Shown: positions 4,802 through 8,207, numbered from the stretch's first letter. The stretch is 64,000 bases of DNA from an uncultured Pseudomonadota bacterium (GCA_949295025.1 CASFJK010000005.1:13235-77234), one strand, 5' to 3'. Numbers and translations: made by a program. The notes: generated by a model from the sequence alone, not told the origin.

Positions 4802-6367
4802 ATGGAAGAAAACACAAATAATAATCCGCCCAGAAAAAAACGACCACGCATTCAGCGTCCTCGCATTCAGCCGCAAACATTTACATTACCCATGTTTACG
4901 GACAGACAAAACCGTGAGCATATTGAACCGCAAAAAAGATTAAGTTTGGTTGAAGCTCTGCAAAATTTGGTCAAAAAACCCGAAGAATTTTGCCGCACCA
5001 ATCCGCAAATGGTTAAGAATATTCTTAGCAAAATTGTTTCCGAATATGATATTGCCAAAGTATCAAGCGGAGATATTCTAACTTTGGTAAAAAAGTATGA
5101 AAATGCCATTGAAAGAAAATATATCACGTCAGCGGCACGCCAAGATATTCAAAACCTTCTCTCTGCAAACCCGCGCCCACTTCTCGAAAGAGACAATAAA
5201 ATTCGTTTGGAATGTATGGAACAACTAAAAAAATTGTCAGAGAAAAAAGAAATCACACCTGAACAATATCAATATTTACATAAGACTTATTTTTCGGACA
5301 TTATCTCAAAAGACAATCTGCCCCATGCACAAGTTTCTCAAATGTTACGTTGCATGGCTTCAGGAAAATTTTATGCTCCAATCGGTCCTGATAGAAAAAT
5401 AGATAGAAAAAAATTTTCTCCAACATTTCTAAAAATTTTGAACCAAAAGAAAAAATCTAACATTTCAGCCAAAATTGAAGATTACGACTTTTTCGGCTTA
5501 GATAAAAATAAGCAACCCAAATCAAAAGTTTGGTATGCTGTTAAAGATAGTCGTAATTTTCAAAAACTCAAAAATATCATTGCCAAACGCTGCATAGAAA
5601 AAGGTATCGCTCCAGAACAAGCTTACAATCTTAATCCTGCAGATTTGTGGATGCTACTAGCAAAAGATATTGAAAAGACAAAACCCATTCCGTTTTCTTC
5701 TCTTTGCAAAGATGCCAATCCGGCACCATTTGAAGAATTTTCCGTTAAACTTGGTCAAATATTATCAATTGGCGGTGCCTTAGAAATGAAACAAGAACAA
5801 ACAATAAATCTCTGGTTAAAACATTTTGCCTCTAAGCAAGAAAAAGAAGATTTTACAAATAAATATTCTCCCGACTTCAAATTGTTTATCCAAAGATGTG
5901 AACGCATTTATCAAAAGCTGGAACAAGATTTCAAACAAAATCACATCAATCCCAAATTTATGTCACTCTGGGTAGAAAGTATGCTCAAAAACAAAAGCAT
6001 CAATCCCTCTTTGGTTGATTGTCCGAGAAAACCTTATAAAATAGACATTCACCACTGGGATAGATTATCCTCTCTGCAAGATGGTGATAATCCAGCCAAG
6101 AAAAACAATCTGGATAACTTTGGTGTGATGATAATGTATCATGACTATAGTTTTGATATTCATGCTCAAGAACACCAAGGAGAAAGCGCTCATTTTGTTC
6201 TGGCAAACAGAGAACAAACAACCATGAACAAAGACCGTCGTTTTCTCTTTGCTACCTCAAATTGCCTTTACATTAGCGATAATATAATGTATGAAGCATC
6301 AGATTATGCTCCTTTGAATAAAGAAGCTTCATCTCACAACTTAACCATAGACAAACAAAGAGCCTAA
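4802..6367 (+). CDS. Hypothetical 521 aa protein with a tandem basic NLS-like N-terminus (PRKKRPRIQRPRIQ)
   Basis: Long ORF, first of a 4-gene plus-strand operon with intergenic gaps of 3-15 nt. N-terminal direct repeat RPRIQ-RPRIQ preceded by PRKKRP. No recognisable catalytic motifs. Confidence 0.55.
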   Translation: MEENTNNNPPRKKRPRIQRPRIQPQTFTLPMFTDRQNREHIEPQKRLSLVEALQNLVKKPEEFCRTNPQMVKNILSKIVSEYDIAKVSSGDILTLVKKYENAIERKYITSAARQDIQNLLSANPRPLLERDNKIRLECMEQLKKLSEKKEITPEQYQYLHKTYFSDIISKDNLPHAQVSQMLRCMASGKFYAPIGPDRKIDRKKFSPTFLKILNQKKKSNISAKIEDYDFFGLDKNKQPKSKVWYAVKDSRNFQKLKNIIAKRCIEKGIAPEQAYNLNPADLWMLLAKDIEKTKPIPFSSLCKDANPAPFEEFSVKLGQILSIGGALEMKQEQTINLWLKHFASKQEKEDFTNKYSPDFKLFIQRCERIYQKLEQDFKQNHINPKFMSLWVESMLKNKSINPSLVDCPRKPYKIDIHHWDRLSSLQDGDNPAKKNNLDNFGVMIMYHDYSFDIHAQEHQGESAHFVLANREQTTMNKDRRFLFATSNCLYISDNIMYEASDYAPLNKEASSHNLTIDKQRA

Positions 6368-6370
6368 TTC

Positions 6371-6775
6371 ATGAACCAAGCTGTAGAAGAATATCACAGA
6401 AAGCGCAGAGCTTTTATTATCTTGCCCCAAGTTGGCATAATTATCGGCGAACATGGACAACCCCACTCACATCGCGAAATTTTAAAACATATCGGCTGCT
6501 CTGATGAGCAGATATCGCATATTTTAGAAAACTACCCACGCGGCTATTTTCTAAACAACAAACTTGTCATGTACCAATCTGATGATATGAAAGAAGGAGA
6601 AAGTTGGCAGCTCCAACCGGAGAATTATGAGCTTGTAAAAAAATATTTCCGCGACTTGAAAAAAATCTTCGACCTCAACACACAAAGCCAAATATTTTTA
6701 GGCGTATCTCGCGGCAAAGAAGGTGAAATCTGGCCAACAATTAACGAAGTTGATTTAGATTTTTTTAATGAGTAA
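6371..6775 (+). CDS. Hypothetical protein (134 aa)
   Basis: ORF starting 3 nt after the upstream stop. No recognisable motifs. Confidence 0.45.
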   Translation: MNQAVEEYHRKRRAFIILPQVGIIIGEHGQPHSHREILKHIGCSDEQISHILENYPRGYFLNNKLVMYQSDDMKEGESWQLQPENYELVKKYFRDLKKIFDLNTQSQIFLGVSRGKEGEIWPTINEVDLDFFNE

Positions 6776-6780
6776 AGAGT

Positions 6781-7656
6781 ATGAAAATAAAGGCTTTTAT
6801 CCTTATTTTATGTATCATTACCGCAATAGCAATTTATACTTACCGAAACAATATGGTACAAAAATTATATCGCATAACCTTAGACAAAGACTGTGAAGTC
6901 GGCGTTGCGGTTATCCATGGCAACAAACATTGGCTCCTAAATAATGATAAAAGCTATCCCTTGATGAGTGTATTCAAAATCTTTGTTGCTGCTGCCGTTT
7001 TAGAAAAAACAGAAAAAGAAAATACTCCATTAAACAGCCCTATCATTATCACACCGGATATAATTTATCCGACCTATAGCCCGCTACGAGATAAAATCAA
7101 GCAATATCCCTACCAAAGCTCGATTGAAGAATTACTTACCTATATGCTCGCACAAAGTGATAATATCGCCACAGATGTTCTTATATCTTATTTAGGCGGC
7201 ATTGATAAACTCAATCAATTTATTTCATCAGCAGGCTTTCCTCAGATAACTATCAAAGTCAATGAAAAACAAATGAGTGAAGATATTCAAACTCAAAAAT
7301 TGAATGTTGCTCATCCTCAGGATATTGCCTTATTTTTGAAAGCTATTAATGACGGAAAAATTCTTTCAGCAAAACAGGCAGAAGTTTTCAGAAATATCCT
7401 GAAACAAACACAGACCGGTCTAAACAAACTCAAGGCAGGATTACCAAACAACGTTGTTATCGGACACAAAACCGGCTCTTCCGACCGAGATAACAATGAG
7501 GTTAAAATCGGCGATAATGATACCGGATTTGTCGTTCTTCCTAATGGCGAAATTTATTACATTGTAGTAATGATTAAAAATTCAAAAATGAGTGACGACC
7601 AAAATGCCAATCTCATCTCCCAAATTTCTAAACTTGTTTATGAAAAACTAAAATAA
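6781..7656 (+). CDS. Class A beta-lactamase-fold serine hydrolase
   Basis: SVFK (S-x-x-K), SDN (AQSDNIATD) and KTG (GHKTGSS) motifs in canonical order and spacing. N-terminal hydrophobic signal/anchor. Confidence 0.75.
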   Translation: MKIKAFILILCIITAIAIYTYRNNMVQKLYRITLDKDCEVGVAVIHGNKHWLLNNDKSYPLMSVFKIFVAAAVLEKTEKENTPLNSPIIITPDIIYPTYSPLRDKIKQYPYQSSIEELLTYMLAQSDNIATDVLISYLGGIDKLNQFISSAGFPQITIKVNEKQMSEDIQTQKLNVAHPQDIALFLKAINDGKILSAKQAEVFRNILKQTQTGLNKLKAGLPNNVVIGHKTGSSDRDNNEVKIGDNDTGFVVLPNGEIYYIVVMIKNSKMSDDQNANLISQISKLVYEKLK

Positions 7657-7670
7657 GATACGGAGTAAAT

Positions 7671-8207
7671 ATGAAACTAACGGAAGCGCGCGACCAAAAA
7701 CTTTTAGCCCAAATTCAAACTTTATATTTTGAGGCTTTTCCAAAAGAAGAAAGAAAACCCTTTTCTCTTCTGCTGGAAACCAGAGAAAAAGGACAAAGCG
7801 AAATTTTGGCAATAGAAAATGAACATAATGACTTTTTAGGCTTAGCAATTACGGCAAAACATAAAGACATGGTTTTGTTAGATTATTTTGCCATTTCATC
7901 ACAGCAACGCAGCTCCGGCATCGGCTCAAAAGCTTTTCAAAACATAAAACAGCGCTATGCTGACAAACGCTTCTTTTTAGAAATCGAGCGCACGGATATA
8001 GCCGCCAATAATCAAGTTCAACGACAAAAAAGAAAGAATTTTTATCTTAAAAACGGCATGCAAAATGCCCCCTTCATGGTAGATTTATTTGGTGTTGAAA
8101 TGGAAATTTTGGCTCATAATTGCCAACTGGAATACGAAGAATATTTCAACCTTTATCACACGCTGTTTGGCAACTACATCTCCCAACACATTCATTTGGT
8201 AAAATGA
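7671..8207 (+). CDS. GNAT family N-acetyltransferase
   Basis: Motif A-like QQRSSGIGSKAFQ and the overall GNAT pattern. Last gene of the operon, followed by a terminator. Confidence 0.6.
   Translation: MKLTEARDQKLLAQIQTLYFEAFPKEERKPFSLLLETREKGQSEILAIENEHNDFLGLAITAKHKDMVLLDYFAISSQQRSSGIGSKAFQNIKQRYADKRFFLEIERTDIAANNQVQRQKRKNFYLKNGMQNAPFMVDLFGVEMEILAHNCQLEYEEYFNLYHTLFGNYISQHIHLVK

What the first reader, a model, noticed from the sequence alone, without database searches (positions are those of the whole stretch)
4802..8207. Tight four-gene operon: NLS-like basic-repeat protein, small unknown, class A beta-lactamase-fold protein and GNAT, next to an IS1595-like transposase fragment
Four plus-strand ORFs are separated by 3, 5 and 14 nt (4802-6367, 6371-6775, 6781-7656, 7671-8207) and end at a strong terminator, which implies co-transcription. 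The third protein has the complete class A serine beta-lactamase triad of motifs (SVFK, SDN, KTG). The fourth is a GNAT. The first two have no recognisable function. A serine hydrolase plus acetyltransferase pair downstream of a large protein with a eukaryote-like nuclear-localisation-type N-terminus is not a described system. It could be a resistance cassette, or an effector plus modification/immunity module. The adjacent truncated IS1595-like transposase (4279-4647) and the tRNA-fMet with a degraded GC-rich remnant just downstream suggest the operon sits in a former mobile region.
Basis: partly seen in the sequence, partly recalled or inferred. Interest (0 to 1): 0.7.

Follow-up and report, generated by a model that had tools for sequence, protein, structure and literature searches.

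The report
Mosaic operon with ordinary β-lactamase
Four tightly packed genes in an uncultured human-gut alphaproteobacterium are neighbours by lineage-specific gene loss rather than a new functional system: one is an intact but ordinary class A β-lactamase, one an ordinary acetyltransferase, and two are clade-restricted proteins of unknown function.

Summary
The four ORFs, their 3/5/14-nt spacers, the terminator and the SVFK/SDN/KTG motifs are all real. In related uncultured gut Alphaproteobacteria it splits into three units that assort independently.

1. ORF1 always pairs with the divergent 122-aa gene at 4279-4647, across about 8 distinct relatives down to 35% identity. That gene is full-length and conserved, not an IS1595 fragment.
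2. ORF2 occurs alone, after a NUDIX gene, or before bla.
3. bla sits beside the initiator tRNA-Met, with the GNAT in three lineages.

The bla passes NCBIfam's class A cut-off and is closest to subclass A2. Its catalytic residues are invariant in 36 relatives, and it is at most 49% identical to anything outside its clade. The GNAT is genuine, with unknown substrate. ORF1 and its partner have no Pfam, PDB or fold match. ORF1 carries a conserved KKRPRI motif and an invariant HH…N…HxxxH block that resembles colicin-type HNH, but without statistical support.

There is no transposase, att repeat, GC anomaly, or plasmid or phage match. The "remnant" is a deletion scar. Overall this is ordinary, with one intriguing orphan gene pair.

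The parts
4279..4647 (-). m144: conserved 122-aa orphan protein transcribed divergently from ORF1. The longest ORF runs to 4713, but the conserved start is the ATG at 4647. It is the only universal neighbour of ORF1.
   Evidence: Present directly upstream of ORF1 in every ORF1 locus, at 41-74% identity. A full-length alignment of 9 genomes has 25 invariant columns. No Pfam or PDB hit, so it is not an IS1595 fragment.
4700..4768 (.). Bidirectional promoter region. The inverted pair TTGTCAA (4700-4706) and TTGACAA (4740-4746) gives back-to-back -35 boxes, and CACAAT (4763-4768) is the -10 box for ORF1.
   Evidence: Promoter scan scores 10 of 12. Both boxes and the -10 are conserved in all 9 aligned lineages. 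They are also retained in front of ORF2 in L027, which lacks ORF1.
4802..6367 (+). ORF1: 521-aa clade-restricted orphan protein. It has a disordered basic N-terminus, a helical body (aa 45-420) and a C-terminal His-rich strand-strand-helix block.
4832..4870 (+). NLS-like basic motif RKKRPRI (aa 11-17), followed by a lineage-specific 15-nt tandem duplication (RPRIQ twice, 4841-4870).
   Evidence: K12, R14, P15, R16 and I17 are nearly invariant in the subfamily of at least 35% identity. The motif is absent from the more distant subfamilies. The duplication is repeat family D9.
6038..6190 (+). ORF1 C-terminal block KIDIHH...N.LDNFGVMIMY...DIHAQEHQGESA (aa 413-463): a candidate metal-binding or His-Me-finger-like site.
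   Evidence: HH and HxxxH are invariant and N nearly so across 16 diverse superfamily members. AF2 predicts strand 413-418, strand 440-445 and helix 453-457, at pLDDT 50-69. Similarity to HNH is not significant.
6371..6775 (+). ORF2: 134-aa conserved small alpha/beta protein of unknown function. It changes genomic partner between genomes.
6781..7656 (+). Class A serine beta-lactamase, closest to subclass A2, with an N-terminal hydrophobic export signal.
   Evidence: NCBIfam bla_class_A scores 235.5 bits against a cut-off of 200; SubclassA2 scores 252 against a cut-off of 320. Pfam Beta-lactamase2 3e-41. PDB 5tfq 3e-56 and PER-1 9e-33. S63, K66, S126, D127, N128, E162, K230, T231 and G232 are invariant in 36 relatives.
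7671..8207 (+). GNAT-family N-acetyltransferase, substrate unknown.
   Evidence: Motif A (RSSGIG) can be read in the sequence. The family profile hits PDB 3ey5 at 5e-14, and 13 of 13 relatives hit Pfam Acetyltransf_1. It is paired with bla through a 14-nt spacer in the window, L027 and L030.
8234..8264 (.). Bidirectional intrinsic terminator between the GNAT and the tRNA-Met.
   Evidence: Stem of 14 pairs with T-runs on both strands.
8271..8347 (-). Initiator-type tRNA-Met(CAT). It is the fixed chromosomal landmark next to bla in all lineages.
   Evidence: ARAGORN and Rfam both find it. The same tRNA lies downstream of bla in L026, L028 and L030, and downstream of TrpRS in L019.
8458..8999 (.). 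Deletion scar made of two 5'-truncated genes: minus strand 8458-8652 and plus strand 8646-8999, the latter with an internal stop.
   Evidence: tblastn with two genes that are intact in L019. The 166-aa protein matches over aa 103-167 at 95% identity. The 151-aa lipoprotein matches over aa 35-152 at 90% identity.

Best explanation
This is a compact, probably co-transcribed, chromosomal gene string in an uncultured human-gut alphaproteobacterium. It was assembled by lineage-specific loss of intervening genes, so it is not a dedicated four-component system.

Transcription most likely starts at the conserved TTGACA-17-CACAAT promoter (4740-4768) and ends at the hairpin at 8234-8264 (inferred from sequence; no RNA data).

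The string joins three evolutionary units (shown by comparative genomics):
1. The divergent pair m144 and ORF1, a clade-restricted orphan module that shares a conserved bidirectional promoter.
2. ORF2, a small conserved alpha/beta protein that changes neighbours between genomes.
3. bla, anchored next to the initiator tRNA-Met and followed by a GNAT in the closest lineages.

Relatives carry a NUDIX gene between ORF1 and ORF2, and a minus-strand ASCH gene directly after ORF2 (L017) or directly before bla (L030). Loss of these would produce the tight four-gene arrangement seen in the window (inferred).

Mechanisms:
- The bla product is exported to the periplasm. It hydrolyses beta-lactams through the standard class A route: acylation of Ser63 (Ambler 70), assisted by Lys66 and Ser126, then deacylation by water activated by Glu162 (Ambler 166). 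This is inferred from intact, invariant catalytic residues and homology to solved A2 enzymes.
- The GNAT transfers acetyl from acetyl-CoA to an unknown amine.
- ORF1 is a non-Sec helical protein. Its invariant HH...N...HxxxH block most likely binds a metal ion. Nuclease activity is possible but unproven.
For: ORFs, spacers, promoter and terminator.

Synteny:
- The full block occurs only in L001-L005, at 99.8% identity or more.
- m144 plus ORF1 occur in every ORF1 locus down to 35% identity.
- ORF1 is followed by NUDIX then ORF2 in L017 and L018, by TrpRS in L019, by an LD-carboxypeptidase-like gene in L020 and L021, and by a small lipoprotein in L022, L023 and L025.
- ORF2 occurs alone in L011-L016.
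- L027 has m144, ORF2, bla and GNAT but no ORF1, and keeps the ORF1 promoter.
- L030 has ASCH, bla and GNAT.
- L028 has bla without the GNAT.
- The tRNA-Met lies next to bla in all of these.

Other evidence:
- bla identity and intact active site.
- GNAT identity.
- None of 80 more distant GNAT loci has a bla within 5 kb.
- The 49%-identical bla outgroup has no GNAT neighbour.
- Tight spacing is common in this genome (30% of same-strand pairs) and the five genes have normal GC and GC3.
- No mobile-element signal.
Against: - Three consecutive short spacers plus a single promoter and terminator do make a real operon, and co-transcribed genes are often functionally linked.
- The bla-GNAT pair keeps an identical 14-nt spacer across three lineages (bla 76-100% identical), which could reflect coupling rather than shared descent.
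- All comparison genomes are MAGs or metagenome contigs from one narrow clade, so the sample of independent rearrangements is small.
- No expression or activity data exist.
- The functions of ORF1, m144 and ORF2 remain unknown, so a link to bla or the GNAT cannot be formally excluded.
Confidence: 0.72

Rival explanations
1. The bla-GNAT pair is a functional two-gene unit. It could be a small intrinsic resistance islet in which each enzyme inactivates a different antibiotic, or the GNAT could modify a cell-wall or beta-lactam-related amine. The pair would be co-inherited because the two act together.
For: The pair keeps the same order and the same 14-nt spacer in the window, L026/L027 and L030/L031 (bla 76-82% identical, GNAT 87-92%). 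The GNAT has a good ribosome-binding site (ACGGAG) 6 nt upstream of its start.
Against: L028 and L029 (bla 69% identical, same tRNA-Met anchor) have no adjacent GNAT. None of 80 more distant GNAT relatives (31-47% identity) has a bla within 5 kb, and 17 of them sit beside ABC transporter genes instead. The 49%-identical bla outgroup has no GNAT. The GNAT matches no NCBIfam resistance acetyltransferase model. In L015 a 64%-identical GNAT homolog lies away from any class A bla.
Confidence: 0.2
2. m144 and ORF1 form a toxin or effector module. ORF1 would be a His-Me-finger (HNH-like) nuclease, and its KKRPRI motif would act as a nucleic-acid-binding element or a eukaryotic nuclear-import signal. 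m144 would be its cognate inhibitor or regulator.
For: - HH, N and HxxxH are the only invariant positions of the C-terminal block across the whole superfamily, and AF2 predicts strand-strand-helix there.
- The only DNase in the PDB list, pyocin S2, aligns exactly on KIxIHHK. HH-suite aligns colicin E9 in the same register. Pfam HNH touches one member.
- m144 is the universal neighbour of ORF1 and persists in L027 after ORF1 is lost, as orphan immunity genes do.
- KRPRP is the adenovirus E1a nuclear-localisation signal (PMC2289585).
Against: - None of the HNH similarities is significant: E=1.4, 1.9% probability and E=0.11; about 1% probability.
- C2H2 zinc fingers match the HxxxH part equally well.
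- Divergent orientation is atypical for immunity genes.
- Neither protein matches any PADLOC defence-system model.
- Distant subfamilies lack the basic motif.
- NLS-like motifs also occur in DNA-binding proteins of free-living bacteria (PMC2425503).
- Nothing shows secretion or a eukaryotic host cell.
Confidence: 0.12
3. One reading: all four genes form one undescribed system (effector plus modification or immunity, or a resistance cassette) that was brought in by a mobile element inserted at the tRNA-Met.
For: The operon architecture is tight. The tRNA 3' end faces the block, which is the usual geometry of tRNA-integrated islands. Subclass A2 enzymes are mostly a Bacteroidota trait, so an ancient transfer of bla into this clade is conceivable (PMC10989005).
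Against: - The four genes occur together only in near-identical contigs, and each unit occurs without the others elsewhere.
- There is no integrase or transposase. The supposed IS fragment is a conserved gene.
- There is no direct repeat of the tRNA end.
- GC and GC3 are normal.
- bla is at the same tRNA-Met site in lineages down to 69% identity, so it is long resident.
- Only the tRNA matches plasmid or phage DNA, and ORF1 has no relative encoded on viral contigs.
Confidence: 0.04

Closest known systems
Ambler class A beta-lactamases of subclass A2 (PER, VEB, TLA, CblA, CepA, CfxA, MUN-1; PDB 5tfq, 1e25)
   Same: Full-length homology: PDB 5tfq 3e-56, PER-1 9e-33. The NCBIfam SubclassA2 model is the best-scoring model. 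The SxxK, SDN, Glu166 and KTG equivalents are all present and invariant. It has an N-terminal export signal and comes from the human gut, like CblA, CepA, CfxA and MUN-1.
   Different: It scores below NCBIfam's curated A2 cut-off (252 bits against 320). Identity is only 33-39% to the named plasmid-borne families searched (MUN-1 37%, VEB 33%) and at most 49% to anything outside its own clade. It is chromosomal and vertically anchored next to tRNA-fMet in uncultured Alphaproteobacteria, whereas A2 enzymes are described mainly from Bacteroidota (PMC10989005). Its substrate spectrum is unknown.
GNAT-superfamily N-acetyltransferases (Pfam PF00583; PDB 3ey5, an uncharacterised GNAT)
   Same: The acetyl-CoA-binding motif A (R-x-x-G-x-G) is present. 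The profile matches 3ey5 at 5e-14, and all 13 relatives match Acetyltransf_1.
   Different: There is no match to any curated resistance, RimI, ArsN2 or EctA model above threshold. The substrate is unknown. Its family-specific N-terminal EAFPxEERxP motif is not one I can assign to a characterised subfamily.
Colicin/pyocin-type HNH (His-Me finger) DNase domains and their immunity proteins
   Same: The ORF1 C-terminus has HH, then N about 20 residues later, then HxxxH about 15 residues after that. AF2 predicts a strand-strand-helix there. A small conserved partner gene lies alongside.
   Different: No significant sequence, profile or fold similarity was found. The loops are longer than in colicins. 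The partner gene is divergent rather than downstream. There are no recognisable translocation or receptor-binding domains, and the family is not polymorphic at the C-terminus.
Bacterial nucleomodulins (secreted effectors carrying classical NLS motifs; review PMC7819608)
   Same: A conserved monopartite K-R-P-R type basic motif lies in a disordered N-terminus. It resembles the adenovirus E1a KRPRP signal.
   Different: There is no evidence of a secretion signal, a secretion system, an intracellular lifestyle or a eukaryotic target. The motif is missing from the distant subfamilies. Such motifs also occur in ordinary bacterial DNA-binding proteins (PMC2425503).
IS1595-family transposase
   Same: None found, beyond being a small basic protein on the opposite strand.
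   Different: No transposase or zinc-ribbon Pfam or NCBIfam hit. It is full-length and syntenic in nine genomes. There are no flanking inverted repeats.

Membership tests
Class A serine beta-lactamase | Curated HMM score above the family cut-off | tested here: met
   NCBIfam NF033103 bla_class_A scores 235.5 bits against a cut-off of 200. Pfam PF13354 scores 141.5 bits against a cut-off of 22.
Class A serine beta-lactamase | Catalytic motifs S70-x-x-K73, S130-D-N, E166 and K234-T/S-G | tested here: met
   SVFK at aa 63, SDN at 126, E162 in NEKQM (aligned with the TE..M segment of 5tfq) and KTG at 230. All are invariant in 36 relatives of 46-100% identity.
Class A serine beta-lactamase | Export to the periplasm | tested here: inconclusive
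   The N-terminus MKIKAFILILCIITAIAIYTY is hydrophobic and has an A-x-A site, as read from the sequence. No signal-peptide predictor was available.
Class A serine beta-lactamase | Hydrolysis of beta-lactams or an MIC shift | not testable with these tools
   Requires cloning, nitrocefin assays and MIC tests.
Subclass A2 of class A | Score above the curated subclass model cut-off | tested here: not met
   NF012099 SubclassA2 is the best-scoring model, but 252.2 bits falls below its cut-off of 320. All the nearest solved structures and plasmid genes are A2 enzymes. It therefore works like, and is closest to, A2, but is an outlier.
GNAT N-acetyltransferase | Pfam Acetyltransf_1 at or above the gathering score | tested here: inconclusive
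   The window protein alone scores 20.3 bits against 20.7. However, 13 of 13 family members match at E up to 0.01 (best 4.7e-12), and the family profile hits the solved GNAT 3ey5 at 5e-14.
GNAT N-acetyltransferase | Acetyl-CoA-binding motif A, (Q/R)-x-x-G-x-(G/A) | tested here: met
   R80-S-S-G83-I-G85. R80, G83 and G85 are invariant in the 13-member alignment.
IS1595 transposase (fragment) | Similarity to the DDE transposase or its zinc-ribbon domain; signs of decay | tested here: not met
   No hits in Pfam or NCBIfam for any of 9 homologs. The gene is intact, of constant length and syntenic in nine genomes.
HNH / His-Me finger nuclease | HH...N...H(xxxH) signature on a beta-beta-alpha scaffold | tested here: inconclusive
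   The signature is invariant across the superfamily, and the predicted secondary structure is strand-strand-helix, though at pLDDT 50-69.
HNH / His-Me finger nuclease | Significant sequence, profile or fold similarity to a known HNH domain | tested here: not met
Toxin-immunity pair (ORF1 with ORF2) | The immunity gene is invariably adjacent to the toxin gene | tested here: not met
   ORF2 is absent next to ORF1 in L019-L025 and L006, is separated from it by a NUDIX gene in L017 and L018, and is present without ORF1 in L011-L016 and L027.
tRNA-integrated genomic island or resistance cassette | Integrase or transposase, a direct repeat of the tRNA 3' end, deviant composition, patchy presence | tested here: not met
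   No integrase or transposase. The 25-nt tRNA end is unique in the window even with 3 mismatches allowed. GC and GC3 are within 1 SD of the window's genes. bla is at the tRNA-Met in all lineages. No plasmid or phage copy exists.
Nucleomodulin (NLS-bearing secreted effector) | Classical NLS motif K-(K/R)-x-(K/R) | tested here: met
   K13-R14-P15-R16 is nearly invariant in the subfamily. This is a motif match only.
Nucleomodulin (NLS-bearing secreted effector) | Secretion into a eukaryotic cell and nuclear import | not testable with these tools
   No secretion signal is recognisable. The organism's lifestyle is unknown, because it is known only from uncultured gut MAGs.
Operon (co-transcription unit) | Single promoter, short same-strand spacers and a single terminator | tested here: met
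   Promoter at 4740-4768, spacers of 3, 5 and 14 nt, terminator at 8234-8264. The promoter is conserved. RNA evidence cannot be obtained with these tools.

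The most novel reading that the evidence does not exclude
The conserved divergent pair m144 and ORF1 could encode a previously unrecognised effector module of uncultured gut Alphaproteobacteria. ORF1 would be a helical carrier that ends in a highly diverged His-Me-finger (HNH-like) nuclease or metal-binding domain. 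Its conserved KKRPRI motif would direct it to DNA, possibly to the nucleus of a eukaryotic cell (host epithelium or a gut protist). m144 would act as its dedicated inhibitor or regulator. The bla, GNAT and ORF2 genes would be bystanders.
Probability: 0.07. Interest if true: 0.75.

Novelty: new member of a known kind. Interest (0 to 1): 0.3.

Why it matters
For the resistome: the window documents a distinct, vertically inherited clade of A2-like class A beta-lactamases in uncultured human-gut Alphaproteobacteria. Members are at most 49% identical to anything outside the clade and 37% identical to MUN-1. Subclass A2 is usually regarded as a Bacteroidota trait that only rarely reaches Pseudomonadota (PMC10989005). 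If the enzyme is active, it is an unmonitored chromosomal reservoir gene.

For genome annotation: the case shows that very tight spacing in a compact genome can be produced by deletion of intervening genes and need not mark a functional system.

The m144-ORF1 pair is a clean, conserved orphan module with a shared bidirectional promoter, an invariant His cluster and an NLS-like motif. It would be worth a bench test, but nothing here shows what it does.

Tried and rejected
1. ORF1 as an HNH nuclease. The motif looked convincing by eye, but every formal test failed or was non-significant:
- Pfam scan of 10 members.
- PDB profile of the full-length alignment, 0 hits.
- Diverse C-terminal profile, pyocin S2 at E=1.4.
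- Foldseek against the PDB, nothing below E=1.
I kept it only as a low-probability rival.

2. ORF2 as an immunity protein for ORF1. Rejected because the adjacency is not conserved and ORF2 is better conserved than ORF1.

4. IS1595 identity of 4279-4647. Rejected.

5. Defence-system or phage origin. PADLOC gave only a non-significant E=0.017 hit for ORF2, and ORF1 has no relative on viral contigs.

6. Island at the tRNA. No att repeat, and repeat family D1 is just two similar terminators.

7. Recent horizontal transfer of bla and the GNAT, judged by composition. Rejected.

8. The afdb50 fold library was unavailable.

9. A literature search for the gut alphaproteobacterial lineage returned nothing specific, so the organism is named only as in the MAG titles.

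Full report
OBSERVATION

A sigma-70-like promoter, TTGACA-17-CACAAT, lies at 4740-4768. A 14-pair bidirectional hairpin terminator lies at 8234-8264. It is followed by tRNA-Met(CAT) on the minus strand at 8271-8347. The tRNA sequence has the C1-A72 mismatch of initiator tRNA; that rule comes from my own knowledge.

Tight spacing is not unusual in this genome. 14 of 46 same-strand neighbours in the window (30%) are 15 nt apart or less, and the upstream genes even overlap. Co-transcription is therefore plausible, but spacing alone is weak evidence for a functional unit.

WHAT THE PROTEINS ARE

ORF3 (bla) is a genuine class A serine beta-lactamase.
- NCBIfam bla_class_A scores 235.5 bits against a cut-off of 200. 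The best model is SubclassA2, at 252 bits, below its cut-off of 320.
- Pfam Beta-lactamase2 scores 3e-41.
- The closest solved structures are A2 enzymes: 5tfq at 3e-56 and PER-1 at 9e-33.
- Ser63-x-x-Lys66, Ser126-Asp-Asn, Glu162 and Lys230-Thr-Gly are present and invariant in 36 relatives of 46-100% identity.
- Outside a clade of 291-aa relatives (69-84% identity; one 290-aa relative lies at 59%), identity drops to 49% or less.
- The best plasmid-borne relatives are MUN-1 (37%), Bacteroides A2 enzymes (39%) and VEB (33%).

ORF4 is a GNAT. On its own it falls just under Pfam's cut-off (20.3 bits against 20.7). A 13-member family alignment shows an invariant motif A (R-x-x-G-x-G). All 13 members hit Acetyltransf_1, and the profile hits the solved GNAT 3ey5 at 5e-14. 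No curated resistance acetyltransferase model matches, so the substrate is unknown.

ORF1 and ORF2 have no Pfam, NCBIfam or PDB assignment.

ORGANISM

All relatives come from metagenome contigs and from MAGs titled 'uncultured Alphaproteobacteria' or 'uncultured proteobacterium'. Sample labels include Hadza and BRZ, and many related GNAT contigs are labelled as human gut metagenome. Window GC is 37%.

SYNTENY: THE DECISIVE RESULT

I ran tblastn with every gene of the neighbourhood against all fetched loci and made ORF maps.

- The four genes occur together only in L001-L005, which are at least 99.8% identical to the window.
- The universal partner of ORF1 is the divergent minus-strand gene at 4279-4647 ('m144'). 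It is present directly upstream of ORF1 in every ORF1 locus down to 35% ORF1 identity (L006-L010, L017-L025).
- Downstream of ORF1 the content changes in almost every lineage:
  - NUDIX then ORF2, with 4- and 5-nt spacers, followed by a minus-strand ASCH gene (L017).
  - NUDIX then ORF2, followed by glycosyltransferases (L018).
  - A minus-strand gene, then TrpRS, then the tRNA-Met (L019).
  - An LD-carboxypeptidase-like gene (L020, L021).
  - A small conserved lipoprotein (L022, L023, L025).
- ORF2 homologs (63-91% identity, 31 clusters) also stand alone in unrelated contexts (L011-L016).
- bla and the GNAT recur as a pair, with the same 14-nt spacer:
  - In L030 and L031, after an ASCH gene and with no ORF1 or ORF2.
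  - In L026 and L027, where ORF2 precedes them.
- L027 has m144, ORF2, bla and GNAT but no ORF1. The ORF1 promoter is retained at 91% identity directly in front of ORF2.
- L028 and L029 carry a 69%-identical bla without the GNAT.
- In all of these lineages the initiator tRNA-Met lies just downstream of bla, so bla is an old resident of this chromosomal site.
- Outside the clade the pairing disappears. None of 80 metagenome loci with 31-47% GNAT relatives has a bla within 5 kb, and a 49%-identical bla sits beside an ArsR-type regulator gene and a P-type ATPase gene.

The block is therefore a mosaic of three units: m144 with ORF1; ORF2; and bla with or without the GNAT. Lineage-specific loss of intervening genes (NUDIX, ASCH) brought them together.

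THE SUPPOSED MOBILE CONTEXT

- m144 is not an IS1595 fragment. Nine homologs align end to end at about 122 aa with 25 invariant columns, and none hits any transposase or other Pfam or PDB family.
- The 'GC-rich remnant' beyond the tRNA is a deletion scar. Bases 8458-8652 (minus strand) encode the last 65 residues of a 166-aa protein, and 8646-8999 (plus strand) encode residues 35-152 of a 151-aa lipoprotein, with an internal stop. Both genes are intact and in the same order in L019.
- There is no second copy of the tRNA 3' end in the window and no flanking repeats.
- GC and GC3 of all five genes are within 1 SD of the window's genes.
- Only the tRNA matches plasmid or phage DNA.
- ORF1 has no relative on viral contigs, and no PADLOC model matches significantly.

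THE ORPHAN PAIR

The ORF1 family is tiny: 13 clusters in 5.8 billion proteins and 24 clusters in 1.84 billion representatives. None has a significant Pfam domain.

The AF2 model (pLDDT 72.7) has four parts:
- a disordered N-terminus (residues 1-43);
- a confident helical body (45-420);
- a strand-strand-helix at 413-458, at pLDDT 50-69;
- a disordered tail.

Two conserved features stand out.

(a) The basic motif. The N-terminal KKRPRI motif is nearly invariant in the subfamily of at least 35% identity but absent from the more distant subfamilies. The extra RPRIQ copy comes from a lineage-specific 15-nt tandem duplication. The motif fits the classical K-(K/R)-x-(K/R) nuclear-import pattern and resembles the adenovirus E1a KRPRP signal (PMC2289585). 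However, such motifs also occur in DNA-binding proteins of free-living bacteria (PMC2425503).

(b) The His cluster. Across 16 diverse superfamily members, the only invariant positions of the C-terminal block are HH and HxxxH (plus one Ile), with a nearly invariant Asn between them. This looks like the colicin/pyocin HNH signature, and the weak hits are in the correct register: pyocin S2 on KIxIHHK at E=1.4, colicin E9 by hhalign at 1.9% probability, and Pfam HNH for one member at E=0.11. None is significant, and C2H2 zinc fingers match the HxxxH part equally well. I therefore treat it as a probable metal-binding site and keep nuclease activity as a minority hypothesis.

The m144-ORF1 intergenic region carries a conserved inverted pair, TTGTCAA and TTGACAA, plus the CACAAT -10 box, in all nine lineages. 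This amounts to two back-to-back -35 boxes, so the pair shares a conserved bidirectional promoter.

MECHANISM AND VERDICT

Most likely (about 0.7), this is a real but evolutionarily accidental operon. One conserved promoter drives an orphan protein, a floating small protein, a periplasmic class A (A2-like) beta-lactamase that works by the standard Ser70/Glu166 acylation-deacylation route, and a GNAT of unknown substrate.

Refinements that remain open:
- a functional bla-GNAT pair (about 0.2);
- a nuclease or effector role for m144 and ORF1 (about 0.12).

The four-gene system or mobile-cassette reading is essentially refuted (about 0.04).

Novelty is modest. There is a new, divergent member of a known enzyme class, in an unusual phylum for that subclass (PMC10989005), plus two uncharacterised clade-specific families.

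Noticed in passing
window 8458-8999: Two convergently truncated genes form a deletion scar: the 3' 65 codons of a 166-aa gene on the minus strand, and codons 35-152 of a 151-aa lipoprotein gene on the plus strand, with an internal stop. Both genes are intact in L019 (8028-8528 and 8858-9313).
   Followed up: yes
L001 about 11547-11548 (corresponds to window 8328-8345): This otherwise near-identical metagenome scaffold has an 18-bp deletion inside the initiator tRNA-Met gene, so ARAGORN finds no tRNA there. It is either an assembly artefact or a strain with a damaged copy.
   Followed up: partly
window 4700-4768, and the equivalent region of L017-L025 and L027: A conserved inverted pair, TTGTCAA and TTGACAA (two back-to-back -35 boxes), lies between m144 and ORF1 in all nine lineages. 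It could also be an operator for a shared regulator.
   Followed up: partly
L022 9488-9760, L023 3028-3297, L025 9661-9933, L024 6901-7230 (minus strand): In the distant ORF1 loci a small conserved lipoprotein (88-109 aa, motif CSCVSYYDxYExSYxVxxxTGYxYYNSPLRLRGLN) lies immediately next to ORF1. It could be a second lineage-specific partner.
   Followed up: no
L017 9571-10415; L018 9550-10394: A 145-aa NUDIX hydrolase gene lies between ORF1 and ORF2 with 4- and 5-nt spacers. In L009 and L010 only a 170-nt gap with a 39-codon ORF remains, which suggests the NUDIX gene is being lost stepwise.
   Followed up: partly
L015 4484-9205: In a more distant MAG, an ORF2 homolog (71% identity) lies two genes from a GNAT homolog (64% identity) on the opposite strand, and about 2 kb from a 272-aa PF00905 (Transpeptidase/OXA-like) gene. 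That is a different beta-lactamase-fold gene in the same neighbourhood.
   Followed up: no
L068-L080, L088, L095, L101 (17 of 80 GNAT loci): GNAT relatives at 31-33% identity in other gut bacteria sit directly downstream of a pair of ABC transporter genes. This may hint at the substrate class of this GNAT family.
   Followed up: no
L027 1411-2937 compared with its flanks: In L027 the u89, u105 and m144 genes are only 58-70% identical to the window, while the flanking NTase, lipocalin, ORF2 and GNAT genes are 92-94% identical. The divergent segment resembles L018, which suggests a recombination mosaic in this hypervariable stretch.
   Followed up: partly
window 9052-9720 (minus strand): A 222-aa protein with internal repeats (motifs such as FSLPHxSEVIKL and PDAEExV recur about four times) has no family match. 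It is conserved next to the ABC/TolA/ExbBD cluster in relatives.
   Followed up: no
window 956-3053: An overlapping three-gene string (a Peptidase_C26 glutamine amidotransferase, a lipocalin-like protein and a nucleotidyltransferase-like protein, with overlaps of 4 and 1 nt) forms the conserved left flank of the variable region. In L019 the amidotransferase is reduced to fragments.
   Followed up: partly
L030 1777-3993: A VirD4/TraG-type type IV secretion coupling protein (PF02534, PF10412, PF12696) is encoded about 4 kb upstream of bla-GNAT in a related MAG. So at least some members of the clade carry conjugation or T4SS components.
   Followed up: no
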